DNA of 64,000 nt from an uncultured Candidatus Saccharibacteria bacterium (GCA_964501355.1 CAZCSM010000008.1:761-64760), one strand, 5' to 3'; shown: positions 36,001-42,000, numbered from the stretch's first letter. Made by a program: the numbers.

Positions 36001-39000
36001 AAGTATTGAACGATGATAAATTAAAAAAGATTTTTGAAAAAGTTGATAAAGCAATTGGGGCAAATGTAGAGCTACGTGCTTTTAAGGACGTTATTGAAAA
36101 GAATAATTTGCTACTTGTTGAGTTAAAAAGTTACGAAATCTTTAAAAAGAATGTTTGGATAGGCTATCTTGATCAAATAAACTCAGATGTAGAAGCATTA
36201 GTTGAGTTCTACAACTCTAAAAAAGAAAAAATAGAAGAGATTATTTCAATTGCTAAGGGTGAAAAAACTGAATGGGAAAAATCAATAGAGGAATTTAACG
36301 AACGATTCAAAGGATTGCCATTCAAGTTAGGTTTAAAAAACAAAGAGGATGTAATACTAAAGACTATTACTCCCTCTGTAGAATTTATTTTTCACGACAG
36401 AGAGGATGAAAAAGTTATTGAAAGAGATGAATTATTAGATGTTTTGAGTCAAGGTGAAAGGAGAGCTTTATATCTATTGAATATTATTTTTGAAATACAA
36501 GCAAGAAGACAATCTGGGCAAGAAACGGTTTTCATAATTGATGATATTGCAGACTCGTTTGATTATAAGAATAAATACGCAATAATCGAATATTTAAATG
36601 ATATTTCAAAGATTGACATCTTTGCTCAGTTAATTTTTACGCATAACTATGATTTTTACAGAAGTGTTTCAGGCAGGATAGTTGGGAATGGAGGAAACCG
36701 TAGAAAATGTAAAATTAGTGTCGTAAAAACGGCAAAAGAAATAAGACTTGTTGAGGAAAAATATCAAAATAATCCATTTGAAACATGGAAGAAGAATTTT
36801 AGCAATGATTCAATGCTTATCGCATCGATACCATTTGTAAGAAACCTTGCTGAATACATAGGTTTAGATTCTGAATGTACAGAATTAACAAAACTATTAC
36901 ATGTAAAGAATGGATCAACTGATATTACTATTTCCAACCTTGAAGATTTAATCAAAAAAGTGCTTCAAGGGAACAATCGCCTGAACTTGCAGAATAATAC
37001 AGATATTGTACTAGATAGGATTTATGCAGTAGCAGAAGAAATAATTAAACAAACAGATGAATTTCTCGAGCTGGAGAATAAAATTGTCCTTTCAATCGCA
37101 ATCAGATTGAAGGTTGAACAGTTTATGATTCAAGAGATAAATGATCAAAGTTTTGTTGACACTCTAACTATTAATCAAACCTATCATTTAATTGCAAAAT
37201 ATAAGGAATTGTATCCTAGCGAAGATGAGAAAATAAATCTATTAGAACAGGTAAATTTAATGACACCAGAAAACATTCATCTGAATAGCTTTATGTATGA
37301 ACCAATTCTTGATTTGGGGGATGAACATCTCAAGGACTTATACAGAAAAGTTAAAGTATTAATATAAACAAAAATGAACAAGTACCGCAATTCAGCAATT
37401 CAAGTATTAAAGGACACAAAGAGACCCTTACATTATAAAGAAATAACAGAACTTGCACTAGAGAAAGGACTACTTGAGACAGACGGTAAGACTCCAGAGG
37501 CTTCTATGAATGCCCAAATTATCATGGATATTAAGAATAAAGGCAAAGCATCAGACTTTATCAAAACAGATACAGCAACATTTGCTCTTAATCCAAATAA
37601 GAAAATACTAACTGACACCAAAGCTATCGAAAAGGACGAAATTGAAGAAGAAAAAATTGTTGTTGAAAGTGGCTTTACTGGTAAGGCAGGCGAACATCTT
37701 GTCTGTTCTCACCTACTGTTTCTAGGATTCAATGCAAGTATCATGAGTGTCGATGTCGGATTGGATATTGTAGCAACTAAAAAAGGGAAAATGTTTGGTA
37801 TTCAGGTTAAAACATCAAACCTAAACTCATTTAAGACTTATGTCTTTGATATCCGTAAGGCTTCATTTGAAAGACATGACTCAGGTAACATCTACTACAT
37901 CTTTGTATTACATGGAGATTCTGAAAATAACTTCTTAATTCTCCCATTTCATGAGGTTGAGAAATTAGTACAACAAAAGATAATTTTAGAAGTTGGGCAT
38001 GGTAAGAGATATAGAGTGAATATCAAATTCAGGGATGACAAAGTTTACTTGGGAAATTTAGATAATGATATGGAATATTACTTAAATAATTGGAAATTGA
38101 TAAAGTAAAATGCAAGAAATAGCTAAAAATCTATTCATCGGAGATATTGGAGATTTTCAATCTTTGGATATCGAAAAGTGGGCTTTAGTCCATGCAACAC
38201 AGACTGTTCATTATAGCCTAATGGGTTGGGATAGAAAGTTTAACAAACCTCCTCGAAATCACCCTAACTACATTAAGTTAGAGCGAGAAAATAGATTTTC
38301 ATTAAATTGGGTTGATGGTGGTGCTCATCTATATAATTGGACAGGTGTAGAAACTTTTGTTGAGATTCTAGATTTTATTGATAAGTGGATTAGTAAGAGA
38401 CCTGTATTAATTCACTGTGATCAGGGACTCTCAAGAAGCCCAACTGTTGGACTCTTATATTTAGCAAAACGTGAGAAAGCAATATCAAACGATACATATC
38501 AAGAAGCATATAATGATTTTATTCGTTTGTATCCTTCATATGCTCCTTCAGGGATTGGGGAATATGTATCTAAAAATTGGGAATTTATTAAATGAAACTA
38601 ATTAATCTAATCAGAAAATATTAATGAAAAAAGTTAAAGTCACAATTCAAGATGAAAATACATTGGTATTGCAGGAAGATGCCAATAAAGGTGACCTCAT
38701 AGATCTTAAATCTTTGCATGAGACAGATATTGACAAAAGTACTATTGCTTCTGTTGTTAAATCAATAAAAATGGATGAATTCAATGCAGAATTAGAAAAA
38801 GCAAAGAGTATTATTAAGCGAGAAAATGAACTGCAACTTCAATTAAAAGAAAAAGAGATTTACGACAAAGCAAATAAAGAACTTATTGCCAAAGAAGAAG
38901 AAATCCGTGAGCTTAAGTCAAGCCTTAGCAATGCAGAGCTTAAAAAGAAAATAGAGATTTCAGAAGCAATTACTTCACTAGAGAAGGAAAGGGACAAACT

Positions 39001-42000
39001 TACAAATGAGATTCGGAATAAGGAAAATGAAGGGAAATTAAATGAAACTACTCTCCAAAGGGAATTCGAACTCAAGCTTAGAGCAAAAGACGACGAAATA
39101 GCACTATACAAAGATATGAAAACAAAACTTTCTACTAAAATGCTTGGAGAGAGCTTAGAACAGCACTGTGAAATTGAGTTTAATAAAATACGATCTACCG
39201 CCTTTCCAAAAGCATATTTTGAAAAGGATAATGATGCGTCTGGTGGTACAAAAGGAGATTATGTATATAGAGAAACCACTGAGGATGGGACTGATATCCT
39301 TTCAATTATGTTTGAGATGAAGAATGAGGGAGATGAAACAACTACGAAAAAAAAGAATGAGGATTTTCTTGCTAAGCTTGATAAAGATAGAAATGATAAG
39401 AAATGTGAGTTTGCCGTTTTAGTGACACTTCTAGAAATTGATAACGAACTGTATAACTCTGGAATTGTTGATATGTCTCACAAATACCCCAAAATGTATG
39501 TTATCCGTCCACAATTTTTTATTCTGTTAATCACATTACTTAGAAATGCAGCACTTAAATCACTAGAATTCAAGTCCGAACTCGCACTGGTTAAGGCGCA
39601 GAATATAGATATTACAAACTTTGAAAAGAATATTGAAACCTTTAAAGAGGGATTTGCTAGAAATTACGATTTGGCAAGTCGCAAGTTTGTTGATGCTATA
39701 GATGGTATAGATAAAACAATTAAACAGCTTGAGAAAACAAAGGCCGCATTACTGAGTTCTGAAAATAACTACAGACTCGCAAATAATAAAGCACAAGATC
39801 TTACTATAAAACAGCTTACTAAGAACAGTCCTATAATGGAAGAAGAGTTTAAAAAAATTAGGAATGCTAAATGAGGAGGGTTTAATTCAATTGAAATAAA
39901 CGCTAATGAACCTAACTAAAACAGACTTTATTGCCTACATAGATGCACCAATGCACTTATGGGCAATAAAGCACAACAAACTAGACGAGAAAGAAATAAG
40001 TGCTTATGTACAGCATCTATTTGAACAAGGCTATGATGTTGAACGTTACGCTGAAAGATACATTCAAGAACACCTCATACACCAGTATAAAGCCAAACCA
40101 GAAGATATCCTCCTCCAACCTACTCACCTTGACGGAGAATTCGAGGCTAGAACTGATGTACTAATCCGAAACCCAGAAACAAACCTTTGGGATATGTATG
40201 AGATCAAGTCCTCAACAAAAGTCGAAAAAGTACATAAATATGATGCAACATTTCAATTATTGGTATTTAGAAAGAAATACGAGTTGGGACAGATTTATAT
40301 CATTCATCTTAATAAAGACTATATATTAGAAGGTGAGATCGATCTAAAAGAGCTATTTACTGCTTCAAATGTAACTGAGATAACAGAAAGCCTTAAAGAT
40401 GAAGTCCATAACTTACGATATGAGGCATTAGAGATCATCCAAGAAGACGAGTCTCAAAATGTATTAGCCTGTATCAGACCTAAGACATGCCCTTGCTTAG
40501 AGCTTTGCCATAAAGATCTACCTGAATACTCGATCTACGATGTAAACCACCTTACAGCAAGTGAGATGAAGATAAGAGAGCTTGAGGAGATGGGTGTAAA
40601 AAGTGTTTACGATATTCCAAATACATTCCCACTTACAGATAAACAAAGTTTTCAAGTTCAAGTTGCAAAAAACGGTACAGCTTCAATTGATAACGATGCA
40701 ATAAAGACTGAACTTAATAGCCTTGTCTATCCGCTTTACTTTGTAGATTATGAATCATTCAATCCTGCAATTCCAATGTATGATGGATATAAGCCATATG
40801 ATCAGATGCCTTTTCAATGGTCATTACATGTATTAGAGCATGAAGGAGATGAAATAAAACACTATGAATTTATTGAGACAGAAGCAATTGATCCTATTCC
40901 TAACTTTCTGGAAGCATTACAAGAAGTTATCGGGACAGACGGCTCAATTATAGTTTGGAATGAAACCTTTGAAGGCACTCAAAATATCAGAATGGGAGAA
41001 ATTCATCCTGAATATAAAGACTTCTGTGAAAACATGAATAATCGAATGTTTGATCTGATGAAGATATTTAGAGATGGGCTTTATGCTGATCCAAAATTCA
41101 AAGGGAGCTATTCAATTAAGAAAGTTTTGCCTGTCCTTGTGCCTGACCTCAGCTATGAAGGTATGGAAATTGGTGAAGGTGCAACTGCTATGGCTAGTTG
41201 GGATGAGATGGTTCATAAGCTTGGCAAAAACGAACTTGATAAAAAGGGAAAGATACGAGAAGATCTTCTTAGGTATTGTGAGTTGGATACGTTGGCGATG
41301 GTGAGGATTTGGGAGGCGTTGAAAGAATTATGAACAAGAAGACTTTTAAACAAGAAAACAGAATCGTATTAAGAACATTAAACGATTTTGCGACAATTAC
41401 TTCAAACTTGCCGAATATAATTGTGTTAGGTTCGGTTGGACTTATTTCTCACACTCAAACAATTGGATATTTTAGAAAAATCAAAGATATTGACACAATA
41501 GCTGATTCAAAATATCAAGACGAAATAGAGAATTATTTGATTAGTAAGGGATATAAAAAATCTACCTTCATTGATAAAAAGATGCCTCTATCAAGAATCC
41601 TGAGACTTTTTTCATCAAGTAAATACACAAGATTTTATAAGCAAGATTCTTGCGATTTAGAAATATTGTTCACCCCTTATGTTTACCAGGGGGAATTGCT
41701 CAGAATCGAGTTATTTCCGATGTTATACGCTACATTACCACTCAATGTACTCATAGAAAATGAATTAATGGGTATAAAAGTTAAAACAATCTCATCAGAA
41801 GCACTGTATGCAGTTAAACAACTCACACACAACTCCTTTGGAAAGCTTTATAAAAAAGGTTCAGAAAAACGATTGCTTGATCATGAGGCATTATATAAAA
41901 ACATCAATGTTCATAAATATCAGGATATTATTAAGGCTTTCAAAATCAAAGTAGGTTTCCTTCCAATCCCAATAAAACATTATATAACACTTAGAAACCA

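What the first reader, a model, noticed from the sequence alone, without database searches (positions are those of the whole stretch)
38624..41333. DUF2130-like and DUF2779-like (Cas4/RecB-like) proteins embedded in the defense cassette
The 416-aa protein has a long coiled-coil followed by the motifs SIMFEMKNE...YPKMYVIRPQFF. The 475-aa protein combines D..EIK, a CxxxxCxC...C cluster and the segment PYDQMPFQWSLH. Both belong to poorly characterised families. Their position inside an R-M-led operon-like array supports a role in defense or DNA processing.
Basis: inference. Interest (0 to 1): 0.55.

Follow-up and report, generated by a model that had tools for sequence, protein, structure and literature searches.

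The report
Two accessory nucleases behind a restriction cassette
Two uncharacterised nuclease genes sit at the tail of a mobile restriction-modification cassette in a candidate-phyla bacterium; related genomes show that each often travels with restriction systems but that they are not partners, so they are plausible, untested helpers in destroying foreign DNA.

Summary

The 416-aa protein has a coiled-coil stalk and a PD-(D/E)XK nuclease core. This is an RmuC/ShdA-like layout, but the protein is not a detectable RmuC member.

The 475-aa protein fuses two nucleases. The N-terminal domain is Cas4/MGME1-like and is followed by a C-x5-C-x-C-x3-C-H site. The Pfam DUF2779 domain itself is a DnaQ-like 3'-5' exonuclease, not the Cas4-like part.

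The two are not a pair: 2 of 80 DUF2130 loci hold DUF2779, and 0 of 80 the reverse. In near-identical cassettes DUF2779 is the fixed last gene. DUF2130 fills a variable slot and is absent or replaced elsewhere.

DUF2130 trails R-M, OLD-like or helicase-nuclease genes in a minority of loci. Other loci look housekeeping.

A defence or DNA-end-degradation role is plausible but unproven. Both proteins are new members of known, uncharacterised families. Interest is moderate.

The parts
38624..39874 (+). Gene for the 416-aa DUF2130 protein. It has a small N-terminal beta domain, a coiled-coil stalk, a PD-(D/E)XK nuclease core and C-terminal helices.
   Evidence: ORF. Pfam PF09903, E 2.5e-85. AF2 model with pLDDT 71. 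Foldseek best hits are restriction-endonuclease folds: BstEII, MspJI, AspBHI, McrC and the DdmD nuclease domain.
38735..39130 (+). Coiled-coil stalk of the DUF2130 protein, residues 38-169. Its length varies among homologues.
   Evidence: A single long helix in the AF2 model. This region has large insertions and deletions in alignment A2.
39155..39508 (+). PD-(D/E)XK catalytic core of the DUF2130 protein, residues 178-295. It includes KGD(212)YVYRE at 39251-39274 and SIMFE(231)MK(233)NE at 39302-39328.
   Evidence: H181, C182, E183, D202, K210, G211, D212, M232, K233, E262 and Q297 are invariant across 27 homologues; E231 is nearly invariant. Motif coordinates. The family is classed as PD-(D/E)XK in PMC3424549.
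39906..41333 (+). Gene for the 475-aa protein with two nuclease domains (Cas4/MGME1-like plus DUF2779).
   Evidence: ORF. Pfam PF11074, E 3.1e-40. AF2 model with pLDDT 94 and pTM 0.87.
39906..40445 (+). N-terminal Cas4/MGME1-like PD-(D/E)XK domain, residues 1-180. Motifs: ARTD(84)VL at 40146-40163, WD(96)MYE(99)IK(101) at 40188-40214, and TFQ(117)LLVF at 40248-40268.
   Evidence: Foldseek hits Cas4 Pcal_0546 (4r5q, E 1.5e-3, prob 1.0) and MGME1 (5zyv, prob 1.0). PADLOC Cas4 model, E 7.7e-5, residues 10-203. D84, D96, E99, K101 and Q117 are invariant.
40467..40511 (+). Cysteine cluster A-C189-IRPKT-C195-P-C197-LEL-C201-H202. This is a predicted metal site; whether it binds Zn or Fe-S is undetermined.
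   Evidence: C189, C195, C201 and H202 are invariant, and C197 is conserved in at least 90% of 32 homologues. No Cys lies N-terminal of residue 189.
40734..41330 (+). C-terminal DnaQ-like (DEDDy-type) 3'-5' exonuclease domain, which covers the Pfam DUF2779 / RNase_H_2 region. Motifs: ExoI FVD(281)YE(283)SF at 40740-40760, ExoII WN(352)ETFE(356) at 40956-40973, and ExoIII Y(457)CELD(461) at 41274-41288.
   Evidence: D281, E283, E356, Y457 and D461 are invariant. PF13482 RNase_H_2 is sub-threshold here (E 0.011) but is annotated on many homologues. Foldseek hits ERI2, 3'hExo, Maelstrom and RNase H. The family is placed in the 3'-5' exonuclease clade F.17 by PMC3985635.
30820..38595 (+). Upstream part of the same cassette, in order:
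- HTH_3 controller, 30820-31068.
- Type III Mod, 31058-32827.
- Type III Res, 32830-35202, with its own C-terminal PD..DTK motif.
- PDC-S46 ABC/SMC-like ATPase, 35172-37367.
- HARE-HTH + PD-(D/E)XK protein, 37374-38108.
- DSPc Cys-phosphatase, 38110-38595.
   Evidence: Pfam and PADLOC. Res nuclease motif at residues 709-726. The same gene order is found at 96-100% identity in L190, and in L001 at 88-99% except for Mod at 72%.

Best explanation
These are two independent, stand-alone accessory nuclease genes docked at the 3' end of a mobile defence cassette. The cassette runs HTH controller, Type III Mod, Type III Res, PDC-S46 ATPase, HARE-HTH nuclease. The host is a Patescibacteria (Dojkabacteria-like) genome.

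**What is shown**
- The 475-aa protein is a two-headed nuclease. It has a Cas4/MGME1-like PD-(D/E)XK domain (D84, E99-x-K101, Q117), a four-Cys/His metal site, a helical linker, and a DnaQ-like 3'-5' exonuclease domain (D281, E283, E356, Y457, D461).
- It is the conserved last gene of the cassette.
- Its family is locally enriched next to Type I, Type III and GmrSD-type restriction genes.
- The 416-aa protein is a soluble PD-(D/E)XK nuclease on a long coiled-coil stalk, an RmuC/ShdA-like layout.
- It occupies a variable slot of the cassette. In other genomes its family often trails R-M, OLD/GajA-like or helicase-nuclease genes.

**What is inferred**
- After the Type III enzyme or the HARE-HTH nuclease breaks unmodified incoming DNA, the DUF2779 protein engages the new ends.
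- It then resects both strands: 5'-3' through the Cas4-like head and 3'-5' through the DEDD head. This would act as a helicase-less analogue of RecBCD/AddAB nuclease action and make the break irreparable.
- The DUF2130 protein adds a second DNA endonuclease of low sequence specificity, as ShdA does in the Shield system.
- Neither protein needs the other.
For: **Domains and active sites**
- Pfam assignments.
- Invariant catalytic residues in 32 and 27 homologues.
- AF2 model with pLDDT 94, with Foldseek hits to Cas4 4r5q and MGME1 for the N-terminal half and to ERI2, 3'hExo and RNase H for the C-terminal half.
- Restriction-endonuclease folds for the DUF2130 core.
- Published superfamily placements.

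**Cassette structure**
- The same cassette in L190 ends exactly at DUF2779, with unrelated genes after it.
- In L001-L003 the cassette is 97-99% identical for Res, S46 and HARE-HTH, and DUF2779 is 93% identical. DSPc + DUF2130 are replaced there by a PNPOx-like gene, and the chromosomal flanks differ.
- L086 has HARE-HTH, DSPc and DUF2779 without DUF2130.

**DUF2779 family context**
- 22 of 74 metagenome loci have an R-M cluster gene within +-2 genes.
- R-M genes make up 29/224 genes at +-1-2 against 21/486 further away (odds ratio 3.3, p 1e-4).
- 7 loci have Type III-like Mod + helicase pairs, 9 have Type I genes, and 6 have a GmrSD_N protein directly upstream, 5 of them at a gap of 11 bp or less.

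**DUF2130 family context**
- Homologues are 55-60% identical across unrelated phyla, which indicates horizontal transfer.
- Upstream neighbours include OLD/GajA/AriA-like ATPases (5), mad3 (6), EcoRI-type R-M (4 methylases, 3 endonucleases), GmrSD_N (4), HsdR (3) and WYL (3).
- It lies directly behind HsdR, EcoRI-like pairs or SF1 helicase-MTES_1575 nucleases.

**Precedent**
- The RmuC-domain nuclease ShdA is sufficient for phage defence (PMC10270631).
Against: - No experiment exists for either family.
- Neither protein matches any PADLOC model, apart from a weak Cas4 hit, or any PHROG.
- Both families are unusually well conserved for defence genes: mean column identity is 53% and 64%, with 55-65% identity across phyla.
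- Many loci are not defence-like. DUF2779 lies beside gatCAB and ABC-F genes. DUF2130 sits in conserved non-defence synteny in Saccharibacteria and in two other ~1 Mb genomes.
- A Mycoplasma bovis DUF2779 transposon mutant has a growth defect in cell co-culture. It was recovered together with DNA replication, repair and nucleotide-metabolism genes (PMC7373297).
- The window's Res has its own nuclease motif, so it needs no extra nuclease.
- The context statistics rest on crude ORF calls and BLAST clusters. The sets of 80 loci were chosen by similarity to this query and include near-duplicates, for example L092/L093 and L107/L109/L116.
Confidence: 0.42

Rival explanations
1. Both proteins are housekeeping nucleases for DNA repair, recombination or nucleotide salvage. 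Examples would be end processing in reduced genomes that lack RecBCD/AddAB, or recycling of DNA in nucleotide-auxotrophic CPR bacteria and Mollicutes. On this reading they lie in variable regions beside R-M genes only by hitch-hiking.
For: - Sequence conservation is high.
- DUF2130 sits in stable non-defence synteny.
- DUF2779 lies next to gatCAB in 4 loci.
- A M. bovis DUF2779 mutant is growth-deficient only in co-culture with host cells, alongside holA, recD and nrnA mutants.
- Neighbours include nucleotide-metabolising enzymes: NT5C and SNase, NUDIX and HAD, and DSPc.
Against: - R-M genes are enriched 3.3-fold at +-2 genes of DUF2779.
- The distribution is sporadic across phyla, with contexts differing even within Saccharibacteria.
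- DUF2130 is present or absent between cassettes that are 97-99% identical.
Confidence: 0.3
2. The genes serve the mobile element that carries them, whether an ICE, a prophage or an island. Possible roles are processing the element's own DNA ends, entry exclusion, or countering the recipient's defences.
For: - The window holds an ICE-like element: a serine recombinase at tRNA-Pro, T4SS genes and a relaxase at 4-24 kb, plus a DUF2958 gene at 29.45 kb.
- Serine recombinases lie within +-2 genes of DUF2779 in 7 loci. Terminase-like modules lie within 10 kb in 10 loci.
- 18 DUF2130 loci and 2 DUF2779 loci fall on IMG/VR contigs.
- The N-terminal domain resembles phage Cas4-like and YqaJ-like exonucleases, and the full-length architecture is found in giant viruses.
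Against: - Neither protein has a PHROG match.
- Viral hits are very rare among 2.9 million contigs.
- In L001 the cassette has no ICE or phage genes within 10 kb.
- The tightest coupling, with gaps of 11 bp or less or outright fusion, is to restriction-type genes rather than to recombinases.
Confidence: 0.15
3. DUF2130 and DUF2779 form an obligate two-gene system.
For: - They are adjacent, 31 bp apart, in the window and in L190.
- They co-occur within a few genes in Polaribacter (L069) and Limnohabitans (L083).
Against: - Only 2 of 80 DUF2130 genome loci contain DUF2779 within 10 kb, and 0 of 80 DUF2779 metagenome loci contain DUF2130.
- L001-L003 and L086 keep DUF2779 without DUF2130.
Confidence: 0.03
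4. The 475-aa protein is a true Cas4 that works in CRISPR adaptation.
For: - Fold match to Cas4 4r5q.
- Weak match to the PADLOC Cas4 model.
Against: - The Pfam Cas_Cas4 score is 12.3 bits against a cut-off of 22.7.
- There is no N-terminal Cys for the canonical 1+3 cluster.
- The window has no CRISPR array and no cas gene.
- The protein carries an extra DEDD exonuclease domain.
Confidence: 0.02

Closest known systems
RmuC (PF02646) and ShdA of the Shield anti-phage system
   Same: Both have a coiled-coil region followed by a PD-(D/E)XK nuclease core. ShdA alone degrades DNA and protects against phage (PMC10270631). The hhalign match of DUF2130 to E. coli RmuC, though not significant, falls on the catalytic Asp segment.
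   Different: DUF2130 shows no significant sequence relation to RmuC: no Pfam RmuC hit at E up to 10, and hhalign gives E 0.16. It has no N-terminal membrane anchor and no PADLOC hit. It also carries its own conserved N-terminal beta mini-domain and C-terminal helical region.
Cas4 / MGME1 / AddB-type PD-(D/E)XK exonucleases
   Same: The fold of residues ~1-180 matches (4r5q and 5zyv, prob 1.0). The D...ExK and Q motifs are conserved.
   Different: The protein is below the Pfam Cas4 threshold. All four Cys lie after the nuclease core as C-x5-C-x-C-x3-C-H, rather than one N-terminal Cys plus three C-terminal. There is no CRISPR context. The domain is fused to a second nuclease.
TM0106/COG2251 'RecB-family nuclease' proteins (Cas4-like + PF13482 RNase_H_2) and DnaQ-like DEDD exonucleases
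   Same: These proteins share the same two-domain logic. PMC3985635 lists families F.13 and F.17 as RNase H-like exonuclease domains joined to DUF83. Many homologues carry both PF13482 and PF11074. The ExoI and ExoIII motifs are present. Giant-virus 'RNase_H superfamily' proteins match over the full length.
   Different: The ExoII acidic residue is Glu, not Asp (N352-x2-F-E356). The protein has no helicase or AAA domains. Sequence matches to solved exonucleases are absent, and the fold matches are weak (E ~0.1).
RecBCD / AddAB end-degrading nucleases acting after restriction
   Same: The proposed role is the same: two nuclease activities of opposite polarity acting on a DNA end produced by restriction. 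This is inference from the domain composition.
   Different: The protein has no helicase motor and no Chi-recognition apparatus. It is a single polypeptide of 475 aa. The comparison is not a homology claim beyond the shared PD-(D/E)XK fold.
R-M-embedded accessory genes such as PrrC or RloC in hsd loci, and PADLOC candidates PDC-S46 and PDC-S57
   Same: These are extra genes carried inside or at the end of R-M operons. PDC-S46 is in this very cassette, and PDC-S57/T5orf172 precedes DUF2130 in L004.
   Different: PrrC and RloC are anticodon nucleases with ATPase domains, whereas the two proteins here are predicted DNases. No sensing partner is known for them.

Membership tests
Pfam DUF2130 (PF09903) | Score above the curated gathering cut-off over the full model. 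| tested here: met
   286.3 bits against 26.7, model positions 3-255 of 255.
PD-(D/E)XK nuclease superfamily (416-aa protein) | A conserved D...(D/E)-x-K catalytic signature on a restriction-endonuclease-like alpha/beta core. | tested here: met
   D212 and K233 are invariant and E231 is nearly invariant in 27 homologues. The model shows a beta-sheet core at residues 197-294. The best Foldseek hits are restriction endonucleases, but they are weak (E 0.02-0.2). The family is listed as PD-(D/E)XK in PMC3424549.
RmuC (PF02646) | Significant sequence or profile similarity to RmuC. | tested here: not met
   No Pfam RmuC hit at E up to 10. hhalign of A2 against E. coli RmuC gives E 0.16 and probability 0.4%.
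Shield ShdA | An N-terminal transmembrane anchor plus an RmuC domain. | tested here: not met
   No hydrophobic N-terminal segment: the maximum 19-residue Kyte-Doolittle mean is 1.45, at residue 293. No PADLOC hit.
Pfam DUF2779 (PF11074) | Score above the curated gathering cut-off over the full model. | tested here: met
   137.8 bits against 23.3, model positions 1-126 of 126, residues 278-403.
DnaQ-like DEDD 3'-5' exonucleases | Three Exo motifs (DxE; Nx2-3(F/Y)D; (H/Y)x3-4D) on an RNase H-like fold. | tested here: inconclusive
   ExoI D281-x-E283 and ExoIII Y457-x3-D461 are invariant. ExoII is N352-x2-F-E356, with Glu in place of Asp. The fold hits to ERI2, 3'hExo and RNase H are weak (E ~0.1-0.9). 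PF13482 is sub-threshold (E 0.011). Activity was not tested.
Cas4 (PF01930) | Sequence membership above the Pfam cut-off. | tested here: not met
   12.3 bits against 22.7. The PADLOC Cas4 model gives only E 7.7e-5. The fold is nevertheless similar (4r5q).
Cas4 (PF01930) | An Fe-S cluster held by one N-terminal Cys and three C-terminal Cys. | tested here: not met
   There is no Cys before residue 189. All four Cys lie within residues 189-201. The metal content cannot be tested with these tools.
Cas4 (PF01930) | Genomic association with a CRISPR array or with cas1/cas2. | tested here: not met
   The window has no CRISPR-like repeat array, and no cas genes among the neighbours.
Type III restriction-modification (the cassette that leads the array) | A Mod methyltransferase plus a Res SF2 helicase carrying a C-terminal PD-(D/E)XK nuclease. 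| tested here: met
   Mod matches N6_N4_Mtase and PADLOC MTase_III at E 1.6e-64. Res matches ResIII and REase_III at E 1e-15. Res residues 709-726 read PDWIVRFKDGRIGIFDTK.
Hypothetical DUF2130 + DUF2779 two-gene system | Consistent co-occurrence of the two genes. | tested here: not met
   2 of 80 and 0 of 80 loci within 10 kb. DUF2130 is absent from otherwise near-identical cassettes.

The most novel reading that the evidence does not exclude
Probability: 0.27. Interest if true: 0.6.

Novelty: new member of a known kind. Interest (0 to 1): 0.42.

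Why it matters
Both families are large and have no assigned function. About 9,700 clusters at 50% identity match the DUF2779 profile.

If DUF2779 is a restriction-linked end-degrading nuclease, it would fill a gap in how small-genome bacteria (CPR, possibly Mollicutes) dispose of restricted DNA. This rests on my own expectation, not checked here, that such genomes often lack RecBCD/AddAB. It would also add a new accessory component to Type I, III and IV restriction loci.

If DUF2130 is a defence nuclease, it would extend the ShdA/RmuC precedent to a separate, far more widespread family.

If the housekeeping reading is right instead, both are candidate core DNA-maintenance enzymes of reduced genomes.

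Either way the catalytic residues listed here make both proteins directly testable.

Tried and rejected
**Searches that found nothing useful**
- Sequence search of both proteins, of Res and of PDC-S46 against PDB chains found nothing useful.
- The N-terminal extensions of the long DUF2779 variants P0389 and P0329 also had no PDB match. Their domains were recovered instead from precomputed Pfam labels; P0329's extension stays unannotated.
- PHROGs gave no hit for either protein.
- PADLOC gave only a weak Cas4 hit.
- The papers library holds no paper that mentions PDC-S46, and none that discusses DUF2130 or DUF2779 in a defence context.
- The Makarova 2011 defence-island paper is not held in the library.

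**Tests that were inconclusive or could not be run**
- hhalign of DUF2130 against E. coli RmuC was not significant.
- Promoter and terminator scans of 29-45 kb gave counts no higher than in shuffled sequence, so they say nothing about operon boundaries.
- A GmrSD_N partner protein (L157) matched BrxU only over its DUF262 part. Whether it lacks its own nuclease remains open.

**Ideas rejected**
- The pair hypothesis, from the co-occurrence counts.
- CRISPR-Cas4 membership.
- The idea that Res lacks a nuclease and borrows one.

Full report

Pfam places the first in DUF2130 (PF09903, E 2.5e-85, residues 143-401). It places the second in DUF2779 (PF11074, E 3.1e-40, residues 278-403). Every quoted motif is present. 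The only slip is the Cys spacing, which is C-x5-C-x-C-x3-C.

Both genes lie in a run of eleven + strand genes (30820-43239) with gaps of 31 bp or less, or overlaps. The upstream genes are:
- an HTH_3 controller;
- a Type III Mod (PADLOC MTase_III, E 1.6e-64);
- a Type III Res, which has an SF2 helicase and its own C-terminal PD..DTK nuclease motif at residues 709-726;
- a 731-aa ABC/SMC-like ATPase that matches the PADLOC candidate PDC-S46 end to end (E 1.7e-262);
- a HARE-HTH protein with a PD-(D/E)XK-like C-terminal half;
- a Cys-phosphatase (DSPc).

The host is a low-GC Patescibacteria genome. A cluster mate of the DUF2779 protein is named Candidatus Dojkabacteria, and most close homologues of both proteins are from CPR bacteria.

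**Anatomy of the 475-aa protein.** An AlphaFold model built on 32 homologues is confident (pLDDT 94, pTM 0.87).

Residues ~1-180 form a PD-(D/E)XK domain. Its best solved matches are Cas4 Pcal_0546 (4r5q) and human MGME1, both at probability 1.0. D84, D96, E99, K101 and Q117 are invariant.

Next comes an invariant C189-x5-C195-x-C197-x3-C201-H202 segment, followed by a helical linker. No Cys precedes residue 189, so this is not the canonical Cas4/AddB arrangement of one N-terminal plus three C-terminal cysteines.

Residues ~277-475 hold the Pfam DUF2779 domain. They carry DnaQ-type motifs: D281-x-E283, N352-x2-F-E356 and Y457-x3-D461, all invariant. The solved structures they resemble, weakly, are ERI2, 3'hExo, Maelstrom and RNase H. 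This agrees with Majorek et al. 2014, who placed DUF2779 in the 3'-5' exonuclease clade and noted its fusion to a DUF83 (Cas4-like) domain.

So the label 'DUF2779-like (Cas4/RecB-like)' merges two different nuclease domains. Pfam Cas4 membership itself fails (12.3 bits against 22.7). The window has no CRISPR array.

Among viral models, full-length matches are giant-virus 'RNase_H superfamily' proteins. Phage Cas4-like and YqaJ-like exonucleases match only the N-terminal half.

**Anatomy of the 416-aa protein.** The model is moderate (pLDDT 71). From N- to C-terminus it shows:
- a small N-terminal beta unit;
- one helix of about 130 residues (38-169), whose length varies among homologues;
- an alpha/beta core (178-295);
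- long C-terminal helices.

D212 and K233 are invariant and E231 is nearly invariant. Together with E183, D202, E262 and Q297 they give a PD-(D/E)XK signature. The best fold matches are restriction endonucleases, all weak: BstEII, MspJI, AspBHI, McrC and the DdmD nuclease domain. Steczkiewicz et al. 2012 already list DUF2130 (COG4487) as PD-(D/E)XK of unknown function.

The layout recalls RmuC and the Shield effector ShdA, which degrades DNA and is sufficient for phage defence. However, there is no detectable sequence relation to RmuC and no membrane anchor. The protein may work like an RmuC-type nuclease, but it is not a member of that family.

**Are the two genes a pair? No.** Among 80 genome loci seeded with DUF2130, only two hold a DUF2779 gene within 10 kb: Polaribacter L069 and Limnohabitans L083. 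Among 80 metagenome loci seeded with DUF2779, none holds DUF2130.

The closest relatives of the cassette settle the point:
- L190 has the same eight genes at 92-100% identity. After DUF2779 it continues with unrelated genes, so the cassette ends at DUF2779.
- L001-L003 keep Res, PDC-S46 and HARE-HTH at 97-99% identity and DUF2779 at 93%. They have a PNPOx-like gene where the window has DSPc + DUF2130, and they sit between different chromosomal genes.
- L086 has HARE-HTH, DSPc and DUF2779 without DUF2130.

DUF2779 is therefore a stable terminal member of a mobile cassette. DUF2130 is a recent insert into a variable slot.

**Context of the DUF2779 family.** I called ORFs in all loci and clustered them by BLASTP. 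Representatives of the recurrent clusters were annotated with Pfam. Results:
- 22 of 74 informative loci have an R-M cluster gene within two genes.
- R-M genes make up 29/224 genes at positions +-1-2 against 21/486 further out (odds ratio 3.3, p 1e-4).
- Seven loci carry Type III-like Mod + helicase pairs next to DUF2779, and nine carry Type I genes.
- Six carry a GmrSD_N + DUF4357 protein directly upstream, five of them at a gap of 11 bp or less.
- Serine recombinases (7 loci within +-2) and a methylase / HTH / terminase-like trio (10 loci within 10 kb) show that many copies sit on integrated mobile elements.

Two domain fusions give independent support:
- P0310 is DUF4391 + DUF2779, encoded 8 bp after an SNF2 helicase and near an N6_N4 methylase.

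The family is large: 9,714 representatives at E up to 1e-3. Against a purely defensive reading, four loci place DUF2779 beside gatCAB and others beside ABC-F genes. A M. bovis DUF2779 mutant also grows poorly only in co-culture with host cells.

**Context of the DUF2130 family.** Homologues 55-60% identical occur in CPR bacteria, Bacteroidota, several Proteobacteria classes, Firmicutes, Actinobacteria, Verrucomicrobia and an archaeal MAG. That points to horizontal spread under strong constraint.

No single neighbour is conserved. The upstream neighbours are nevertheless rich in defence families:
- AAA_21/AAA_15/OLD-TOPRIM proteins, which PADLOC labels Old, GajA or AriA (5);
- mad3 (6);
- EcoRI-type methylase (4) and endonuclease (3);
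- GmrSD_N (4), HsdR (3), WYL (3) and HNH (3).

DUF2130 directly follows HsdR or an EcoRI-like pair in eight loci. It abuts an SF1 helicase-MTES_1575 nuclease in four. It also trails Type I systems in L004 and L195. The downstream neighbours are mostly ordinary genes.

Several lineages keep DUF2130 in stable non-defence synteny. Eighteen loci fall on IMG/VR contigs, but there is no PHROG match.

**Setting in the window.** At 4-24 kb there is an ICE-like element. It has a serine recombinase beside tRNA-Pro, an HTH repressor, TrbL/VirB6-like and VirB4/TraG-like proteins, an M23 peptidase, a coupling-protein-like ATPase and a Replic_Relax relaxase.

Next come cargo-like genes: an APH-like kinase, a beta-lactamase-like protein, an MFS transporter and an ABC-F protein. 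A DUF2958 gene follows at 29.45 kb, and then the cassette.

The cassette may be ICE cargo, but no boundary could be defined. In L001 the same cassette has no ICE genes nearby.

**Interpretation.**

*Shown:* the two domain architectures with intact, conserved catalytic signatures; the independence of the two genes; the positional link of DUF2779 to restriction systems and its fusions; and a weaker, one-sided link of DUF2130 to defence operons.

*Inferred:* the DUF2779 protein resects both strands at DNA ends made by the neighbouring restriction enzymes, and DUF2130 adds an RmuC/ShdA-like DNase.

I give this defence or foreign-DNA-degradation reading about 0.42. A housekeeping repair or salvage reading gets about 0.30, and a role in mobile-element self-maintenance about 0.15.

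Both proteins are new members of known, uncharacterised families. No paper in the library places either family in a defence context, and PADLOC 2.0 has no model for either. The finding is a reasonable candidate for testing but not a surprise.

Noticed in passing
window 3936-23621: An ICE-like element. It comprises a large serine recombinase (3997-5568, -) abutting tRNA-Pro (3936-4012), an HTH repressor, a 1383-aa DUF11-repeat surface protein, TrbL/VirB6-like and VirB4/TraG-like proteins, an M23 peptidase, a coupling-protein-like ATPase and a Replic_Relax relaxase. This would be a conjugative element in a CPR genome. Its far boundary was not found.
   Followed up: partly
window 24146-28825: A block of resistance-like cargo genes between the ICE genes and the cassette: an APH-like kinase (weak hit), a beta-lactamase-family protein, an MFS transporter and an ABC-F ATPase.
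   Followed up: no
window 35172-37367: A 731-aa ABC/SMC-like ATPase with a TTG start that overlaps Res by 31 nt. It matches the PADLOC candidate PDC-S46 end to end (E 1.7e-262) and phrog_38705 (E 2e-187), with a weak mad8 hit. It stays 96-99% identical alongside Res and HARE-HTH in L001 and L190. No paper in the library mentions PDC-S46.
   Followed up: partly
window 31058-32827 compared with L001 2415-4205: Mod is only 72% identical between cassettes whose Res, S46 and HARE-HTH are 97-99% identical. This is the pattern expected from exchange of the target-recognition domain.
   Followed up: no
window 38110-39874; L001 9499-10014; L086 1020-1502: The slot between HARE-HTH and DUF2779 is variable. 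It holds DSPc + DUF2130 in the window and L190, a PNPOx-like gene in L001-L003, and DSPc alone in L086. The DSPc protein keeps an HCxxGxxRS active-site motif.
   Followed up: partly
L136, L140, L141, L151, L157, L164 (gene directly upstream of DUF2779): GmrSD_N (DUF262) + DUF4357 proteins lie directly upstream of DUF2779, at gaps of -1 to 11 bp in five loci. No DUF1524 nuclease domain was detected in the representative. This may be a two-gene Type IV-like system that uses DUF2779 as its nuclease.
   Followed up: partly
[not shown]
   Followed up: yes
L066, L067, L070 (downstream of DUF2130); L197 1360-5994 (upstream): DUF2130 abuts very large SF1 helicase-nuclease proteins of 1544-1937 aa, at gaps of 6-33 bp, in four loci. 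Their domains are DUF4011, AAA_11/12, MTES_1575 and DUF3320.
   Followed up: no
L110, L158, L136, L140, L148, L152, L156, L160 and others: A recurrent trio sits near DUF2779 and often near a serine recombinase: a ~440-aa DNA methylase, a ~130-aa HTH protein and a ~490-aa terminase-like protein (Terminase_6C). This suggests CPR prophages or satellites that carry R-M + DUF2779 as cargo.
   Followed up: partly
window 41309-43239: Three overlapping genes after DUF2779 are not part of the conserved cassette. They encode a 233-aa protein (faint nucleotidyltransferase similarity), a 153-aa protein with an HESIH motif that matches phrog_15610 'protease', and a 264-aa protein with no significant Pfam match.
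   Followed up: no
BFVD hits to model m4c5b0a2a6a67: The full-length two-nuclease architecture has structural matches in giant viruses (Faunusvirus, a Megaviridae sample, Sylvanvirus; E 5e-11 to 2e-7). A Fadolivirus '3'-5' helicase' also matches.
   Followed up: no
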